Part shown: positions 18,708-26,842 of the stretch, piece after piece
Numbering within the stretch: position 1 is the stretch's first letter
Layout: the number at the start of each line of letters is the position of its first letter
The notes under the pieces: generated by a model
What the model was told of the DNA's origin: nothing
Database searches by the model: none
The model's input: only the letters and a program-made list of their open reading frames with translations
IMG/VR virus record: IMGVR_UViG_3300028887_000002
Location: 64,001-128,000 of that record
DNA length: 64,000 nt
Source of the DNA: a virus
Taxonomy: Duplodnaviria; Heunggongvirae; Uroviricota; Caudoviricetes
Direction: 5' to 3' (one strand)
Made by a program: the position numbers and the translations under genes

Positions 18708-19047
18708 CGAAGAATATATTACTTCAATAGTACGTCAAGTTATTAACGAAAGTCTTTCGGAAGGTTTCTTTGGTGACGCATTGAATTTCAGCCGTTATGA
18801 TTATACATTGTCAGTCGGTTCAAACCTTATTGATAAGTTCATTGATGACCTCAAGTCCCGTAACATTAGGTTCAAACTTGGTCGACCAATAGAAGGTGGT
18901 GGTAATTTTGTCCATTTCAAATCTGAGAAAGATTATGACCGAGCAAGTGAAATATACGATAGCGAACTGATGAATACCTACGGGCGTAGTATCGCCGAAG
19001 GTTGTAAAAAATCGAAAAAAGGACTATTTTCTAAATATATAAATTAA
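18691..19047 (+). CDS. hypothetical protein between terminase and portal
   Basis: N-terminal SEEYITSIVRQVINES segment. Confidence 0.7.
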   Translation: MVKRVSEEYITSIVRQVINESLSEGFFGDALNFSRYDYTLSVGSNLIDKFIDDLKSRNIRFKLGRPIEGGGNFVHFKSEKDYDRASEIYDSELMNTYGRSIAEGCKKSKKGLFSKYIN

Positions 19048-21380: not shown

Positions 21381-21407
21381 AAAAGCCTGACGTTTGCCAG
21401 GCTTTTT
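21381..21407. terminator. bidirectional intrinsic terminator
   Basis: AAAAGCCTG...CAGGCTTTTT between convergent RNA transcription units. Confidence 0.8.
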
Positions 21408-21715: not shown

Positions 21716-21730
21716 ATTAATAAATCGTTG

Positions 21731-22118: not shown

Positions 22119-22160
22119 AAAATTTAGATTAGAAACGTCTTAGTGACCACCGACGTTTTG

Positions 22161-22234
22161 CGGTGTGTATGGGACACGAACCCATGACCCTCGGCGTGAT
22201 AGACCGATATTCTAACCTACTGAACTAACACACC
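22161..22234 (-). tRNA. tRNA-Asp body with non-canonical ATC anticodon
   Basis: TCGGT-CT-ATC-AC-GCCGA; Asp-like D arm and G discriminator; T-loop TTCGTGT. Confidence 0.85.
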
Positions 22235-22241
22235 ATAATAA

Positions 22242-22375
22242 AATCCTCATCAGGACTTGAACCTGAACTTCCTTCTTGCTTGCACACAGGATTACTTTTA
22301 CGGTTGCCTCACCAACCTCTCTGTACTGATGTTATCTCGGAGCGAGGGTTTACCAGTTCCCCTTCAGTTTGGATT
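22242..22375 (-). ncRNA. tRNA-like RNA with about 70 nt of structured insertion in the anticodon region
   Basis: D-like GGG-AACTGGTAAA-CCC, T arm TCAGG-TTCAAGT-CCTGA, AATCC/GGATT ends, inner GGTTG/CAACC hairpin. Confidence 0.55.
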
Positions 22376-22393
22376 GTTGTGTGTTCGCCATTG

Positions 22394-22465
22394 TAGCCTG
22401 ACCAAGAATCGAACTTGAATCTGCGGTTTAGAAAACCGTCGTTCTATCCATTGAACTATCAAGCC
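22394..22465 (-). tRNA. tRNA-Arg(TCT)
   Basis: ACGGT-TTTCTAA-ACCGC. Confidence 0.9.
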
Positions 22466-22489
22466 ATATCGAGAGTTTCTTTTCACTCC

Positions 22490-22628
22490 CAAGCCACTAT
22501 CTTCTATATTTAGAAGGTCGCGAGTACGGAGACGACCATTGGTGTTTCACCGAGGGCAAGCCCGCAAACCACTCGCTTGACCGCAAGCATCTCCCGTTTT
22601 TTTACGGGGCTTCCGTCGCAGTGACTTG
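22490..22628 (-). ncRNA. unassigned multi-stem RNA (about 140 nt)
   Basis: 10-bp closing stem CAAGTCACTG/TAGTGGCTTG; GCGA-CGGA/TCCG-TCGC; hairpins GCTTG/CAAGC, GGTG/CACC, CCCGT/ACGGG. Confidence 0.55.
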
Positions 22629-22639
22629 AACGCATAATT

Positions 22640-22772
22640 CCGTTTTCTACGGAAATTCATAGAAAACATTCTTTTCCTGCTTCGCCGAGCCACAACTTCT
22701 TAGGCCACTCGCGTGACGGTCGTCCATTGGAGGGTTCTCCACAGGCGTAAATTCGGGCGAACTCAGCCCTAC
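22640..22772 (-). ncRNA. orphan TnpB-type omega-RNA / IS607-family right-end scaffold
   Basis: GAATTTACGCCTGTGGAG...GAAGCAGGAA...AAAACGG; one frame reads VGLSSPEFTPVENPPMDDR..LRS..KQE, like a TnpB C-terminal tail; no tnpB ORF upstream. Confidence 0.7.
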
Positions 22773-22779
22773 TCACAAT

Positions 22780-23045
22780 ATTTTTAGCCCTTCGTCCCTG
22801 ATATTAAGGGTGGCGTTTGTTTTCGGTGGATTCTCTTTGTTCATCTCGGCAAGTCCATCCACCAGCAGATACCTGCAAGCCTTCCTTGTTTAGAGTCGCT
22901 ACGGTTAGAGGCTGTCATATCCGTCCACGACTTGATGGTGGCTGCCACTTAACGATGTAGTGCTTTCTGTCGGCTTTCACAACCACCATTACGTGTTATT
23001 ATCCGACCGCCAGCCTACGTCTACCTCACGGCAGTTGTCTGGTTT
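22780..23045 (-). ncRNA. large ornate, probably pseudoknotted RNA (about 265 nt), unassigned
   Basis: GC-rich non-coding region with ATGGTGGTTG/CAGCCACCAT, AGTCGT..ACGG/CCGT.GCGACT, AGGCTG/CAGCCT, GTCGG/CCGAC and GGTGGAT/ATCCACC pairings. Confidence 0.55.
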
Positions 23046-23052
23046 AAGTTCG

Positions 23053-23134
23053 TAGCGGAGGCGGGAATCGAACCCGCGAGGCACAAGGGCACGAGATTAT
23101 GAGACTCGCCAGCTACCACTACTGACACTCCGCA
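23053..23134 (-). tRNA. tRNA-Met(CAT), initiator-like, with atypical long variable region
   Basis: T1:T72 mismatch, GCGGAG/CTCCGC acceptor, CTCATAA loop, 14-nt variable region. Confidence 0.8.
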
Positions 23135-23460: not shown

Positions 23461-23515
23461 CAGAACCCTTTGATTTAACCCGTGCATAGTAAATTGTTTG
23501 CTGTTATAGGGTTCC
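23461..23515 (-). ncRNA. ACAGCAAA small RNA, copy 3 in transcript order
   Basis: GGAACCC-TATA-ACAGCAAA...GGGTTCTG. Confidence 0.65.
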
Positions 23516-23524
23516 ATGAAAAAA

Positions 23525-23603
23525 CAGAAGTCTGGTGATGTTCCTTTTGTGTTTAACTTAAAAAATGCAGAAAGTTTTAAAAGTTTTGCTGTAAATGACT
23601 TCC
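23525..23603 (-). ncRNA. ACAGCAAA small RNA, copy 2
   Basis: GGAAGTC-ATTT-ACAGCAAA...GACTTCTG. Confidence 0.65.
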
Positions 23604-23679: not shown

Positions 23680-23742
23680 CAGAAGCCTAGAATTTTGGAT
23701 TAACAGTCCAGTCCTTAAAAAGGTTTTGCTGTAATGGCTTCC
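23680..23742 (-). ncRNA. ACAGCAAA small RNA, copy 1, carrying a tRNA-Asn-like anticodon hairpin
   Basis: GGAAGCC-ATT-ACAGCAAA...TGGA-CTGTTAA-TCCA...GGCTTCTG. Confidence 0.7.
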
Positions 23743-23862: not shown

Positions 23863-25203
23863 TTACTTGATATTTTTCTCGTATTCTACGAGTAATTTAT
23901 CAAGAAATTTTTGTCCGTCAAATCCAGCCTCCAAGAAGTTAAGAAGCATTGGGTTATACCCTGACATAAAGATATTGCCGTTTCTGTCCATTTCAGGACA
24001 AGTGATGTTACGGCTATTCAAGTTCCACCAAACAATCTTGGTTATATAACCCTTTTCTTTCCAAAGTTTTTCCAGTTCATCCTTCTTATATTTGGAACCT
24101 TCGTCAAATTCCATATCAGAAAGTATGACAAGAAATTCTGGGAGTTCATCCGTATCAAGCAAGAGTTCCATGACTTTTGCGAGGTCGGTATTGGAACAAT
24201 CACCAGTTATCATCGAACCGATTTCCTTGCTATAATTGGAGGTTCTGTCACCTATTGGCCTATCATCTGTATGATGGCATATGTGTTTGTGTTTTTCATT
24301 TCCCAATTCTATGATATGCGGGTAAGATGAAAAAGTGACCACGTGGTTGTTAAGGTATGTACTGCACTTACCAAGATAGTGACCGATAGATAAAGCCTTG
24401 CCAATTGAATCGTTTCGGTCGTACATACTTCCTGATGTATCAACTATAGGCATACAACTTATTGAAATCTTTTCCATCTGGTCAAAGACAATGTCTGCAT
24501 CAATCTTGCTGGCGTTCTTATAAATGTCGTATACGGTAGCCGTTGAGACATTCATCTTGGAAGTACCTTTCTTTACGCTATCAAGGTATTCGCTATATTT
24601 TGGGTTTATATCCTTGCGTGTATTAAAACACTTAGCATATTTTAACATTGCCAGTGACGGTATATGTTCAAACTCGATGTTTTCAACCTCGTTTCTTGAC
24701 AAAGTGTTCTCAATGGTATTGCATTTTATGAACTTACCATATGTCTGTTTATTCATGCCCCACTTTTTTGCAATTTGTCTTGCAATTAAGAGGTTTTTTG
24801 ATGCATAGCGTGGCATCCACTTCTTAATGAGTTCGTTTCCTTTTTCAATTTCAGACTTGAGGAACGAAAGAACTTCATCGGTTAGTCCGAATATAGCCAA
24901 AACATCGTCTGCGCGTCCTGATTTAACAATGCCCTCAATGTTGCACTGAGCAAGTTTCATAAGTCTTCTACCAAGGTCGCGTCTTCCTAAACCATAACGC
25001 GGGTCACGAATGAACCTTGCGAAGATTTTATCCTTTTCGGTTGTACCAATAAGGTCTTCGGTTACTTCACCCAAGTGATTCTGATAATATTCAGACAAAA
25101 ACAACAAGTTTATAAGGTTATTGTTGTTTGATACTTTGGTGTATGCAATGTCACCATTTTCAGTAGTCTTCACGTTAGCAAATGCTTCCATAATGTTTGT
25201 CAT
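23863..25203 (-). CDS. DUF2828-family helical + vWA protein (Ro60/TROVE-like architecture)
   Basis: TTENG..AY, RDPR.G.G.R, KWMPR, IPSLAM.KY, MIDAS VDTSGSM, NTDL, ILSDMEFD, IVWWNL. Confidence 0.85.
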   Translation of the reverse strand: MTNIMEAFANVKTTENGDIAYTKVSNNNNLINLLFLSEYYQNHLGEVTEDLIGTTEKDKIFARFIRDPRYGLGRRDLGRRLMKLAQCNIEGIVKSGRADDVLAIFGLTDEVLSFLKSEIEKGNELIKKWMPRYASKNLLIARQIAKKWGMNKQTYGKFIKCNTIENTLSRNEVENIEFEHIPSLAMLKYAKCFNTRKDINPKYSEYLDSVKKGTSKMNVSTATVYDIYKNASKIDADIVFDQMEKISISCMPIVDTSGSMYDRNDSIGKALSIGHYLGKCSTYLNNHVVTFSSYPHIIELGNEKHKHICHHTDDRPIGDRTSNYSKEIGSMITGDCSNTDLAKVMELLLDTDELPEFLVILSDMEFDEGSKYKKDELEKLWKEKGYITKIVWWNLNSRNITCPEMDRNGNIFMSGYNPMLLNFLEAGFDGQKFLDKLLVEYEKNIK

Positions 25204-25348: not shown

Positions 25349-25379
25349 CAAAGGTAAATCATTTTTTTGTAACTGCAAA
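25349..25379 (-). promoter_or_regulatory. Bacteroidota sigma-A type promoter
   Basis: Minus strand TTTG-N19-TACCTTTG upstream of the DUF2828 gene. Confidence 0.78.
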
Positions 25380-25955
25380 ACTTTTTTTAATTTTTTTTCG
25401 AGGTTTATATGCGCCACTCTTTTTACCATTCCTCCAATCCCAAATCGTCTTATAGTTAAAGACTTGTGGAACGGTATAGATATAATACAAACAGTCCAAA
25501 ATCTTCTTCTTCATCCATTCGGTGTTAGCGAATCTTGAATTAAATCCATATTCTATCACTACCACATCATTAACTGTATAAACTCTTGGTTGTGGTGATG
25601 TCGCCTTGTTTGACATGTCGCCCTTGAATCTTCCAATCCAAACTGAAAATCGGATGTCGGGTTTTCCATTGCCCTCGTGCTTGCGCCATGTCTCAACTTT
25701 GGAGGGGTGATTTGATAAACGTATCTTTATTGTGAAGGTCTTGTCACTTGAAACAACAACATCATAGAAACTGTTACCTTCTCCACCCATTTCCAGTGAA
25801 TCTGCTAAAAATAACAGTAGGCTGTCATCCGTTCCGTTCTCGTTGTGTTCCTGATTTCTGTAGTGCTTGATGAATTTTAGGGCATTCCATCTTTTCTTGG
25901 CAAACCATTCAACCGTTGCCTTGTCCAATCTGTCAAAATATCGTCTATTTGCCAT
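25359..25955 (-). CDS. hypothetical protein (IRLSNH motif)
   Basis: Likely start MANRRY; TATTTAT late motif at 25980-25986 on the minus strand. Confidence 0.7.
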   Translation of the reverse strand: MANRRYFDRLDKATVEWFAKKRWNALKFIKHYRNQEHNENGTDDSLLLFLADSLEMGGEGNSFYDVVVSSDKTFTIKIRLSNHPSKVETWRKHEGNGKPDIRFSVWIGRFKGDMSNKATSPQPRVYTVNDVVVIEYGFNSRFANTEWMKKKILDCLYYIYTVPQVFNYKTIWDWRNGKKSGAYKPRKKIKKSFAVTKK

Positions 25956-26009
25956 AGGCTGAAAAATATTTCTACTATTATAAATAGTTTTTCGGACGCC
26001 TATTGGAAT

Positions 26010-26042
26010 AAAAAAGGGCTGGGATTTTTGCAACTCCCAACC
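26010..26042 (-). terminator. intrinsic terminator
   Basis: GGTTGGGA...TCCCAGCC-CTTTTTT. Confidence 0.75.
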
Positions 26043-26059
26043 GTCTAATTCTGAATGAT

Positions 26060-26161
26060 GTCAACTGCTTTACTTGCTTTCGCCTCGGTTTTTATGCTTC
26101 GGACACGGCGCGTTGACTGCGCTCTCACACCATTTGGATATTAGTCCAATCTGGCTTGCGA
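26060..26161 (-). ncRNA. structured 3'-UTR / small RNA
   Basis: TCGCA..CCA..TTGGA/TCCAA..TGG.TGTGA hairpin and GTCAAC/GTTGAC domain with inner CGCC/GGCG. Confidence 0.45.
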
Positions 26162-26842
26162 CTATTTCTTTTTTGCCTTGTTCTTGCCCTTATATACCAT
26201 CTTGCATTCGTATACATTGTTGTCCGAGTCAAGGAACATGAACTTGTCGGCCAGTTGCATAACACCTAACTTTGGGGTATTGTTACCGCCGTGAGAAATA
26301 TTTTCGTTAAGAAGTACCTTTGTAATTGCAGCAAGTTTTGCATCTACGGTTTCGTCTACAATCTGACGTATTTTATCATAGTCTATTGTTCCCGTATCTT
26401 CATCAAGCGCAGGTAACATTGATTTTTTCGAATTTTCCTTCTGCTGGTCGTATTCCTCAAGTTGCTCGTTGATGCGTGATATGTTATCAATGCCTGAAAT
26501 ATTGGCAAGTCTATTGGTAAATTCATCCATCCTTGGGTCTGAAGGTGACATTTCACACGGATTCTTCAGTATGCTTTCCAATATCGCCTTCGGTACACCA
26601 CACTTGTCAAGATTCTTTGGTTTTCGACCATTCTTGATTTCTTCAAGTTCCTTGTCGGCGCTCCAACTGTCGTCATCTTTCGGTACGTATTTGCCGAATA
26701 CCATCTCGTTGAGTTCTTCCACACTACCCGTTACCATCTGTGGCGCATTTCTCTTTTGTGCTGCTGTTGCTTGAACCCCACCGCTTTTCTGTAGGTCTTT
26801 ATATAATGCTAAGGTTTCTGCTAATGATTTGCTGTCTGCCAT
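26162..26842 (-). CDS. hypothetical phage protein
   Basis: 226 aa; PKAILESILKNP segment. Confidence 0.8.
   Translation of the reverse strand: MADSKSLAETLALYKDLQKSGGVQATAAQKRNAPQMVTGSVEELNEMVFGKYVPKDDDSWSADKELEEIKNGRKPKNLDKCGVPKAILESILKNPCEMSPSDPRMDEFTNRLANISGIDNISRINEQLEEYDQQKENSKKSMLPALDEDTGTIDYDKIRQIVDETVDAKLAAITKVLLNENISHGGNNTPKLGVMQLADKFMFLDSDNNVYECKMVYKGKNKAKKK

What the first reader, a model, noticed from the sequence alone, without database searches (positions are those of the whole stretch)
22621..22772. Orphan TnpB omega-RNA scaffold embedded in a tRNA operon
Seen: the minus strand reads GTAGGGCTGAGTTCGCCCGAATTTACGCCTGTGGAG...GAAGCAGGAA...TTTCTATG/CGTAGAAA-ACGG, and one frame gives VGLSSPEFTPVENPPMDDR...KQE. 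Known (from recall): IS607/IS1341 right ends overlap the tnpB 3' end, have this pattern, end in GG and form the omega-RNA, with the next ~16-20 nt acting as guide. No tnpB, transposase or left end is visible in 64 kb, the pairings look intact, and the RNA sits in a strongly transcribed stable-RNA operon. The predicted guide is AATTATGCGTTCAAGTCAC (22639-22621). Inference: a domesticated trans-acting guide for a TnpB/TldR-like protein encoded elsewhere, or a decoy for host or competitor TnpBs.
Basis: partly seen in the sequence, partly recalled or inferred. Interest (0 to 1): 0.8.

Follow-up and report, generated by a model that had tools for sequence, protein, structure and literature searches.

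The report
Leftover TnpB guide-RNA module in phage tRNA array
A 180-base piece inside a giant phage's tRNA gene cluster is the surviving guide-RNA end of a jumping gene whose nuclease gene was deleted; an intact copy of that nuclease sits elsewhere in the same phage, so the orphan guide may still work, but that is not shown.

Summary
Window 22634-22811 (minus strand) is 90% identical to the last ~180 nt of an intact 409-aa tnpB gene and its right end at 264.8 kb of the same 339-kb jumbo-phage genome. It keeps every base pair of a covariation-supported omega-RNA fold.

Origin is well supported. It is the solo right end of an IS607-like TnpB element. One close relative (L092) has the empty site, GGTAT|GCGTTCAAGTC. 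Four other insertions of this family also follow GTAT, and five right-end junctions all end in ...AAAACGGAAYTAT. The left junction lies in a 6-7 nt microhomology (AACGCCG). This fits normal insertion followed by a deletion that removed the TAM (the motif the nuclease needs beside its target), the left end and most of tnpB.

It is simply the ancestral flank, not a new target.

Present function is open. A nuclease-competent cognate TnpB acts in trans, the scaffold is intact, and no orphan-specific change falls in the 105-nt core (P about 0.01). This favours a selfish homing guide against the empty allele of related phages. No expression data could be obtained, and the one relative lacks the element.

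Verdict: a member of a known kind, of moderate interest. Earlier scan notes concern this genome only.

The parts
22773..22811 (-). Remnant of tnpB codons about 358-371 (..TLNIRDEGLKIL*) 5' of the structured scaffold. It has a TGA at 22775-22773 where intact copies have GGA. The left junction microhomology AACGCC lies at 22812-22817.
   Evidence: Alignment to tnpB264k and to relative L092. Three of the five orphan-specific substitutions lie here.
22668..22772 (-). Structured omega-RNA core: stem 1 (GGGC..GCCC) and the RAGATH-18-like domain CCUGUGGAG...GAAGCAGGAA.
   Evidence: One difference in 105 nt from the tnpB264k copy and none specific to the orphan. In the family fold, 18 of 25 pairs show compensatory changes, and the orphan keeps them all. 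RAGATH-18 hit at 22674-22745, 23.4 bits, below threshold.
22634..22667 (-). Guide-proximal terminal hairpin GUUUUCUAUG-AAUUUC-CGUAGAAAAC, then the right-end terminus GGAATTAT.
   Evidence: Folding. The hairpin differs from the 264k copy by compensatory pairs and matches the allele of intact copies L156 and L157. Five independent junctions end at ..GGAAYTAT.
22618..22633 (-). Predicted 16-nt guide GCGTTCAAGTCACTGC (20 nt would reach 22614). It is ancestral flanking DNA.
   Evidence: Homology to all tnpB copies stops at 22634 and homology to the empty site in L092 starts here.
23052..23134 (-). tRNA-Met, the upstream neighbour in the same transcription sense.
   Evidence: ARAGORN and Rfam.
22393..22465 (-). 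tRNA-Arg(tct), the downstream neighbour in the same sense.
   Evidence: ARAGORN and Rfam.
21381..21406 (-). Terminator-like hairpin with a T-run just after the last minus-strand tRNA. No terminator-like site was found on the minus strand between the tRNAs (23449-21521).
   Evidence: Consensus scan. This is a pattern match only.

Best explanation
The feature is the solo right end, that is the omega-RNA module, of an IS607-like TnpB insertion sequence.

Origin (shown or strongly inferred). A full element inserted into the spacer between tRNA-Met and tRNA-Arg, immediately 3' of a GTAT motif (TAM), at ..GGTAT|GCGTTCAAGTC... A deletion between two copies of AACGCCG then followed. One copy lay 16 nt upstream in the spacer, the other in the tnpB codons for ..LNAALNI.. 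The deletion removed the TAM, the left end and codons 1 to about 356 of tnpB. About 178 nt remain, ending at the transposon boundary. The remnant has no left end, so it can no longer transpose.

Present function (inferred, not shown). It lies in the sense orientation inside the tRNA array, so it is probably transcribed with the tRNAs. Its scaffold is intact and almost identical to that of the phage's own nuclease-competent TnpB at 264.8 kb. That protein can therefore be expected to load it in trans. The complex would recognise GTAT followed by GCGTTCAAGTC..., which is the un-inserted allele carried by related phages. In a mixed infection, cutting that allele and repairing it from this genome would copy the module. 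This is the standard TnpB homing role, now run by a guide-only passenger. It is a selfish leftover, not a retargeted or host-serving guide.
For: Homology and structure:
- 90% identity to the tnpB264k 3' end and right end.
- The family fold has 18 of 25 covarying pairs, all kept by the orphan.
- The covariance model finds only three scaffolds in the genome: those of tnpB264k and tnpB38k, and the orphan.

Boundaries:
- Five independent right-end junctions end ..AAAACGGAAYTAT and then diverge.
- Four independent left-end junctions start TATAA.. right after GTAT.
- The native site of the 264k copy, rebuilt from homologues of the gene it splits, reads CTGTGTAT|AGGTCAT.

Empty site:
- Relative L092 (88-97% identical flanks) has 13-16 nt in place of the 175 nt and reads GGTAT|GCGTTCAAGTCGCAGTGACG.
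- The left junction shares AACGCC(G) with both the L092 spacer and tnpB.

Trans partner:
- TnpB264k has HTH_OrfB_IS605, OrfB_IS605 and Cas12f1-like_TNB domains. D189, E273, D355 and four zinc-finger cysteines are invariant in the alignment.

Constraint:
- None of the 5 orphan-specific substitutions falls in the 105-nt core (P=0.012 if uniform).
- The one substitution in the hairpin stem turns U-A into U-G.
- Intact copies do carry 1-2 private core changes.

Context:
- Same sense as nine tRNAs, with the only minus-strand terminator-like site after the array.
- The same family is polymorphic (filled or empty) among related phage contigs.
Against:
- The single close relative lacks the element, so there is no evidence of long-term retention.
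- Most differences from the 264k copy are synonymous or match intact alleles (L156, L157). They arose in intact genes and say nothing about selection on the orphan.
- The orphan-specific changes could also predate the deletion.
- The L092 target differs from the guide at positions 12, 14 and 16, so cleavage of that particular allele is uncertain.
- GTAT as the TAM of the nuclease is inferred from insertion sites, not measured.
- This genome and its relatives hold other TnpB remnants of several sizes, which shows that plain decay is common here.
Confidence: 0.5

Rival explanations
1. Inert young scar. The origin is the same (insertion, then microhomology deletion), but the RNA has no role. It looks intact only because the deletion is recent and the family's core was nearly invariant to begin with.
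For: It is absent from the only close relative. The 105-nt core is nearly identical in all intact copies sampled, with only 1-2 private changes each, so its intactness in the orphan is expected for a recent derivative. Most orphan-versus-264k differences are synonymous or allelic. Other remnants exist: five 45-50 bp scars of the 38k element, a partial 294k-type fragment at window 26.1 kb, and a frameshifted 15k-type piece in L092.
Against: The five orphan-specific substitutions all avoid the core, and the one in a stem preserves pairing (P about 0.01). A cognate active-looking TnpB is present in the same genome. The module sits in the sense orientation in an RNA operon, so an intact scaffold would by default be made and bound.
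Confidence: 0.4
2. Domesticated trans-acting guide or decoy. The module would have been recruited to steer a TnpB or TldR-like protein to a host, phage or competitor target, or to soak up foreign TnpB.
For: The scaffold is intact and a TnpB is encoded elsewhere in the genome. Relative L092 carries an orphan scaffold of a different TnpB family in its own tRNA array, also in the sense orientation and also starting at the end of the TNB domain.
Against: The guide is the unaltered ancestral flank. No other match to it was found in the 339-kb genome, IMG/VR or INPHARED. The partner keeps its catalytic residues, so it is not a TldR. The module is not conserved in the relative.
Confidence: 0.07
3. 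Not a transposition product. The scaffold alone would have been copied in, for example by reverse transcription of a processed omega-RNA or by illegitimate recombination at both ends.
For: The retained piece starts close to where the omega-RNA region begins, at the end of the TNB domain. The same is true of the orphan in L092.
Against: The right junction coincides exactly with the transposon boundary seen at four other insertions. It abuts a site that carries the family's GTAT motif in the empty allele. A copied RNA would have brought a foreign guide, but the sequence after the boundary is the local flank.
Confidence: 0.03

Closest known systems
IS607-family TnpB/omega-RNA elements acting as homing endonucleases (bioRxiv 10.1101/2023.11.20.567912; IS605 counterpart PMC10055086)
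   Same: The scaffold overlaps the tnpB 3' end and stops at the right-end boundary, and the guide is the adjacent flank. The same dinucleotide (here AT) lies at both ends, with a short motif (here GTAT) 5' of the left end. Full copies carry a serine recombinase next to tnpB.
   Different: This copy has lost tnpB, the left end and the TAM, so it cannot move and depends on a TnpB 178 kb away. It sits inside a phage tRNA array.
PATE-like protein-less IS200/IS605 elements that encode omega-RNAs used in trans (discussed in PMC10055086)
   Same: It is a guide-RNA-bearing element without a nuclease gene that would need TnpB supplied from another element.
   Different: PATEs keep both ends and can still be mobilised. 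This remnant has no left end, so it is not a PATE.
TldR-associated guide RNAs (PMC10705468)
   Same: It is a TnpB-type scaffold considered for a role other than transposon maintenance.
   Different: TldRs are nuclease-dead and their guides point at host promoters. Here the partner keeps D-E-D and the guide is the local flank.
RAGATH-18 RNA motif (Rfam RF03064)
   Same: The CCUGUGGAG ... GAAGCAGGAA closing helix and inner stem align over the full 71-position model.
   Different: The score is 23.4 bits against a gathering score of 44.9. A tnpB-linked relative (L020) also scores below threshold at 31.5 bits.
Homing endonuclease SegB in the phage T4 tRNA gene cluster (from my own knowledge, not checked here)
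   Same: It is a selfish DNA-cutting system lodged among phage tRNA genes that biases inheritance of that region in mixed infections. This is a functional analogy for the proposed role.
   Different: SegB is a protein-only GIY-YIG enzyme encoded on the spot. Here only the RNA guide is on the spot and the nuclease is elsewhere. Activity is not shown.

Membership tests
TnpB omega-RNA scaffold (right-end-encoded guide RNA) | Sequence homology to the 3' end of a bona fide tnpB gene plus its downstream right end | tested here: met
   90% identity over 184 nt to tnpB264k, E=3.5e-66. 93-95% identity to intact copies L156, L157 and L159. tblastn gives 49 of 52 residues.
TnpB omega-RNA scaffold (right-end-encoded guide RNA) | Conserved secondary structure supported by covariation | tested here: met
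   RNAalifold on 7 sequences (5 tnpB-linked relatives): 25 pairs, 18 with compensatory changes. The orphan keeps all of them.
TnpB omega-RNA scaffold (right-end-encoded guide RNA) | Scaffold ends at the transposon boundary and is followed by a variable guide | tested here: met
   Five junctions share ..AAAACGGAAYTAT and diverge directly after it.
TnpB omega-RNA scaffold (right-end-encoded guide RNA) | Transcribed, processed and bound by TnpB | not testable with these tools
There are only weak consensus promoter and terminator matches.
Rfam RAGATH-18 (RF03064) | Score at or above the curated gathering threshold | tested here: not met
   23.4 bits against 44.9.
Complete IS607/IS1341-type element | tnpB ORF overlapping the scaffold | tested here: not met
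   Only codons about 357-409 remain, with an in-frame TGA. There is no PF07282 hit in the window.
Complete IS607/IS1341-type element | Left end (TATAAAYATTCRCTGATTTATTAG..) preceded by GTAT | tested here: not met
   The left end of the 264k copy has no match near the orphan. In L092 the GTAT lies in the 16 nt that are missing from the window.
PATE-like non-autonomous element | Both transposon ends retained without a protein gene | tested here: not met
   Only the right end is present.
TldR-type domesticated system | Nuclease-dead partner and a guide matching a host or foreign regulatory target | tested here: not met
   D189, E273 and D355 are invariant in the TnpB264k alignment. The guide equals the local flank and has no other match.
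IStron (group I intron fused to an IS) | Group I intron ribozyme at the element's 5' side | tested here: not met
   No Rfam hit at E<=10 in 22466-23051 other than RAGATH-18. The upstream spacer is present in L092 without the element, so it is not part of it.

The most novel reading that the evidence does not exclude
The orphan is a minimal gene drive: a guide-only, immobile omega-RNA module that borrows a TnpB encoded 178 kb away. With it, it cuts the un-inserted allele of co-infecting relatives and gets itself copied in. tRNA arrays of jumbo phages would then be preferred, highly transcribed homes for such modules. Two related phages carry orphan scaffolds of two different TnpB families in their tRNA arrays. 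Both are in the sense orientation and both are trimmed to about the start of the omega-RNA region.
Probability: 0.25. Interest if true: 0.7.

Novelty: new member of a known kind. Interest (0 to 1): 0.42.

Why it matters
The case gives a clean natural example in which the filled, empty and truncated states of one TnpB element can all be read in related jumbo phages. From these states the TAM (GTAT), the core dinucleotide (AT), both element boundaries and the guide can be inferred from sequence alone.

If the orphan guide is active, RNA-guided homing can persist after the nuclease gene is lost, provided another copy supplies the protein. TnpB would then shape competition between phages, much as homing endonucleases do in T-even phages. 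If it is inert, it is an ordinary IS scar. The value of this work is then to stop a "domesticated guide" reading from being carried forward.

Tried and rejected
- Rfam at the gathering threshold gave only tRNAs.
- INPHARED phage searches with the 586-nt spacer and with the guide region gave nothing useful.
- IMG/VR exact searches with the scaffold core, the orphan-type hairpin and an 18-nt guide found nothing.
- The metagenome scan with the flank pattern returned only the L092 contig.
- A suspected second, older scaffold relic at about 22540-22585 was rejected. The local alignment score was reached by 67 of 300 shuffles, and the covariance model does not find it.
- The idea that the 234-nt upstream spacer is a decayed tnpB was rejected (284 of 300 shuffles score as well).
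- Aligning the left end with distant TnpB relatives was uninformative. The left end was resolved only with the copies at 96% identity.
- The portal protein found 43 related phage loci. Only L092/L101 has the tRNA array, and none has the scaffold.
- Single-sequence folding z-scores were weak (-1.3 to -1.4) and were not used as evidence.
- A 13-nt match at G000 236239 includes 6 nt of the right end and only 7 nt of the guide, so it was set aside as probable chance.

Full report
**What is there**

The window is bases 64001-128000 of a 339,287-bp virus record with terminal repeats, that is, a jumbo phage. Nine tRNA genes lie on the minus strand between 21521 and 23449. A terminator-like hairpin follows the last of them at 21381-21406. 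The finding lies in the 586-nt spacer between tRNA-Met (23052-23134) and tRNA-Arg (22393-22465).

The quoted sequence is present. Rfam gives a full-length but sub-threshold RAGATH-18 match at 22674-22745 (23.4 bits; gathering score 44.9).

**Homology to a tnpB gene in the same genome**

Searching the phage's own genome with the spacer gave one second copy. Window 22634-22817 is 90% identical to G000:264766-264950 (E=3.5e-66). That stretch is the 3' end of a 409-aa ORF. The ORF carries the HTH_OrfB_IS605, OrfB_IS605 and Cas12f1-like_TNB domains. Its RuvC D-E-D residues and zinc-finger cysteines are conserved in the alignment.

The orphan's frame reads 49 of 52 residues of the TnpB C-terminus, with one in-frame TGA. 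The genome has seven tnpB-type genes, none in the window. It has one Y1 transposase and no serine recombinase.

**It is a genuine omega-RNA scaffold**

An alignment of the orphan, the 264k copy and five tnpB-linked relatives from viral and bacterial contigs gives a consensus fold of 25 pairs. Eighteen of these show compensatory changes, and the orphan keeps all of them. A covariance model built from that alignment finds three scaffolds in the genome: those of tnpB264k and tnpB38k, and the orphan. It finds none in 47 loci from related phages.

**Element boundaries**

A protein search found copies of this TnpB at about 96% identity in other contigs. L156, L159 and L160 are solo tnpB elements. 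L157 and L158 have a serine recombinase gene directly upstream of tnpB, so the family is IS607-like.

- Right end: five independent junctions all read ..AAAACGGAAYTAT and then diverge.
- Left end: four independent junctions start TATAA.. directly after GTAT.
- Native site of the 264k copy: the gene it splits has homologues ending ..PISMTYTEMNRIA... These let me rebuild the native site as CTGTGTAT|AGGTCAT.

The family therefore inserts after GTAT, with AT at both ends. This parallels the core dinucleotide and TAM logic described for IS607 (10.1101/2023.11.20.567912).

The orphan's right end is at 22634.

**The empty site and the origin of the orphan**

One close relative was found, contig L092 (= L101 and L097), with 88-97% identical flanks. 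It lacks window 22637-22811. In that place it reads ..AAACGCCG AGCGCAGGTATGG TAT|GCGTTCAAGTCGCAGTGACG... This is a GTAT motif followed by the sequence that forms the orphan's guide.

At the left junction the window switches from spacer to tnpB sequence inside AACGCC(G). That motif occurs both in the L092 spacer and in the tnpB codons for ..LNAALNI...

The simplest history has two steps. First, a full element inserted canonically at GGTAT|GCGTTC. Second, a deletion between the two AACGCCG copies removed 16 nt of flank (including the TAM), the left end and most of tnpB. A copied RNA or a double illegitimate event is unlikely. The right junction is the exact transposon boundary and the following sequence is local flank.

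**Is the remnant still under constraint?**

Against the 264k copy, the differences are distributed as follows (Fisher P=0.0009 for the first against the second):

| Region | Length | Differences |
|---|---|---|
| 5' extension | 45 nt | 7 |
| Core | 105 nt | 1 |
| Terminal hairpin region | 29 nt | 10 |

The hairpin pairing is preserved despite those ten differences.

Most of this is not decay of the orphan. Most of the 5' differences are synonymous (four of seven by my reading of the codons; the rest are GCC to ACC, AGA to AAA and GGA to TGA). The orphan's hairpin is the allele carried by the intact copies L156 and L157.

Counting only substitutions unique to the orphan against four intact copies leaves five: 22811, 22791, 22775 (the stop), 22650 (U-A to U-G in the stem) and 22637. 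None is in the core (P=0.012 if uniform). Intact copies carry one or two private core changes.

This is modest evidence for continued structural constraint. The timing of those changes relative to the deletion is unknown.

**Targets**

The guide has no other match with up to 4 mismatches and a suitable motif in the 339-kb genome. It has no exact match in IMG/VR and nothing meaningful in INPHARED. Its only known target is the empty allele in L092.

That allele matches guide positions 1-11, 13 and 15. It differs at 12, 14 and 16 through inversion of the 5-nt loop of a small hairpin (GTC-ACTGC-GAC against GTC-GCAGT-GAC). In the window itself the guide-matching DNA is preceded by TTAT, not GTAT.

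**Context that cuts both ways**

This phage lineage holds many TnpB remnants:

- Five scars of about 50 bp from the 38k element lie elsewhere in the genome.
- A partial 294k-type fragment lies at window 26.05-26.15 kb.
- L092 carries its own orphan scaffold between tRNA-Gln and tRNA-Ser. It belongs to the large-TnpB family of the genes at 15 kb and 282 kb. It is in the sense orientation, frameshifted, and starts at the end of the TNB domain, as the window's orphan does.

The recurrence in tRNA arrays could mean that spacers tolerate insertions. It could also mean that guide-only modules do well there. With two cases I cannot tell.

Filled and empty polymorphism of the 264k family among related phage contigs shows that the family is or was recently active in this phage population. 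One example is G000 18.7 kb, an empty GTAT site for the L157 element.

**Verdict**

Origin as the truncated right end of an IS607-like TnpB element is well supported (about 0.9).

Use in trans by the phage's own TnpB, as a selfish homing guide against empty alleles, is plausible and slightly favoured over an inert young scar. It remains unshown because no expression data could be obtained.

The concept of omega-RNAs used in trans by TnpB from another element has already been put forward for PATEs (PMC10055086). I therefore file this as a new member of a known kind, of moderate interest.

Noticed in passing
L092:3452-4083 (relative contig IMGVR_UViG_3300028832_002581); the equivalent place in the window is the 12-nt spacer at 21716-21727: The relative has a 632-nt insertion between tRNA-Gln and tRNA-Ser(gct). 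Its first ~200 nt are 83-85% identical to the 3' ends of the large tnpB genes at G000 15.7 kb and 283 kb. This is a second orphan omega-RNA-like piece, in the sense orientation, frameshifted, and starting at the ..NIRN.. motif. The remaining ~420 nt match nothing in G000.
   Followed up: partly
window 26046-26145 (-), between ORFs 26162-26842 and 25359-26033: About 60-100 nt resemble the 3' end of tnpB at G000 294 kb (a 33-nt core at 94%: GTGTGAGAGCGC..GTCAACGCGCCGTGTCCGA), and both end in GTTGAC. This is probably a more decayed orphan scaffold of a third TnpB family.
   Followed up: partly
G000 36385, 206552, 287038, 297548, 299322 (outside the window): Five copies of about 50 bp read TTTAA|TAATACGGGCAAGAAGT-CCCCTTCCTTCAGGTGGGGG-TAGTTCAT. 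They share the terminal hairpin of the tnpB38k right end and are each followed by different sequence. They look like collapsed left-end plus right-end scars or mini-elements.
   Followed up: partly
window 22614-22624 (-) compared with L092 2789-2799: GTC-ACTGC-GAC in the window is GTC-GCAGT-GAC in the relative. This is an exact inversion of the 5-nt loop of a small hairpin. It creates all three mismatches between the orphan guide and the empty-site target.
   Followed up: no
window 22160-22234 (-) and 22238-22441: tRNA-Asp has anticodon ATC here but GTC in the relative. The relative also lacks tRNA-Arg(tct) and its spacer, with the breakpoint inside the tRNA 5' parts.
   Followed up: no
G000 18750-18884 (outside the window) compared with L157 3337-5249: Related phage contig L157 carries a full IS607-like element (serine recombinase plus a 445-aa TnpB). 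In the corresponding place G000 has 133 nt bounded by two GTAT motifs. G000 keeps GTAT|ATATTTACCAACAAC, which is a target for that element's guide.
   Followed up: partly
window 23461-23514, 23525-23602, 23680-23741 (-): Three hairpin-like stretches upstream of the tRNA array give weak, sub-threshold hits to one unrelated Rfam model (Dicty_Class_I_RNA, 23-30 bits). This suggests a repeated structured element.
   Followed up: no
G000 266019-266120 and upstream of tnpB38k, tnpB294k and the Y1 tnpA (37936, 293077, 338081): The 80-100 nt upstream of several tnpB/tnpA genes share a 72-84% similar AT-rich element (..AAAATATTTTTGAAAATTTCTTGAAAAATATTTT..). It is possibly a phage promoter carried inside the elements.
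   Followed up: no
window 23863-25203 (-): The gene just upstream of the tRNA array encodes a 446-aa protein with DUF2828 and DUF7788 domains. It is 95% identical in the relative.
   Followed up: no
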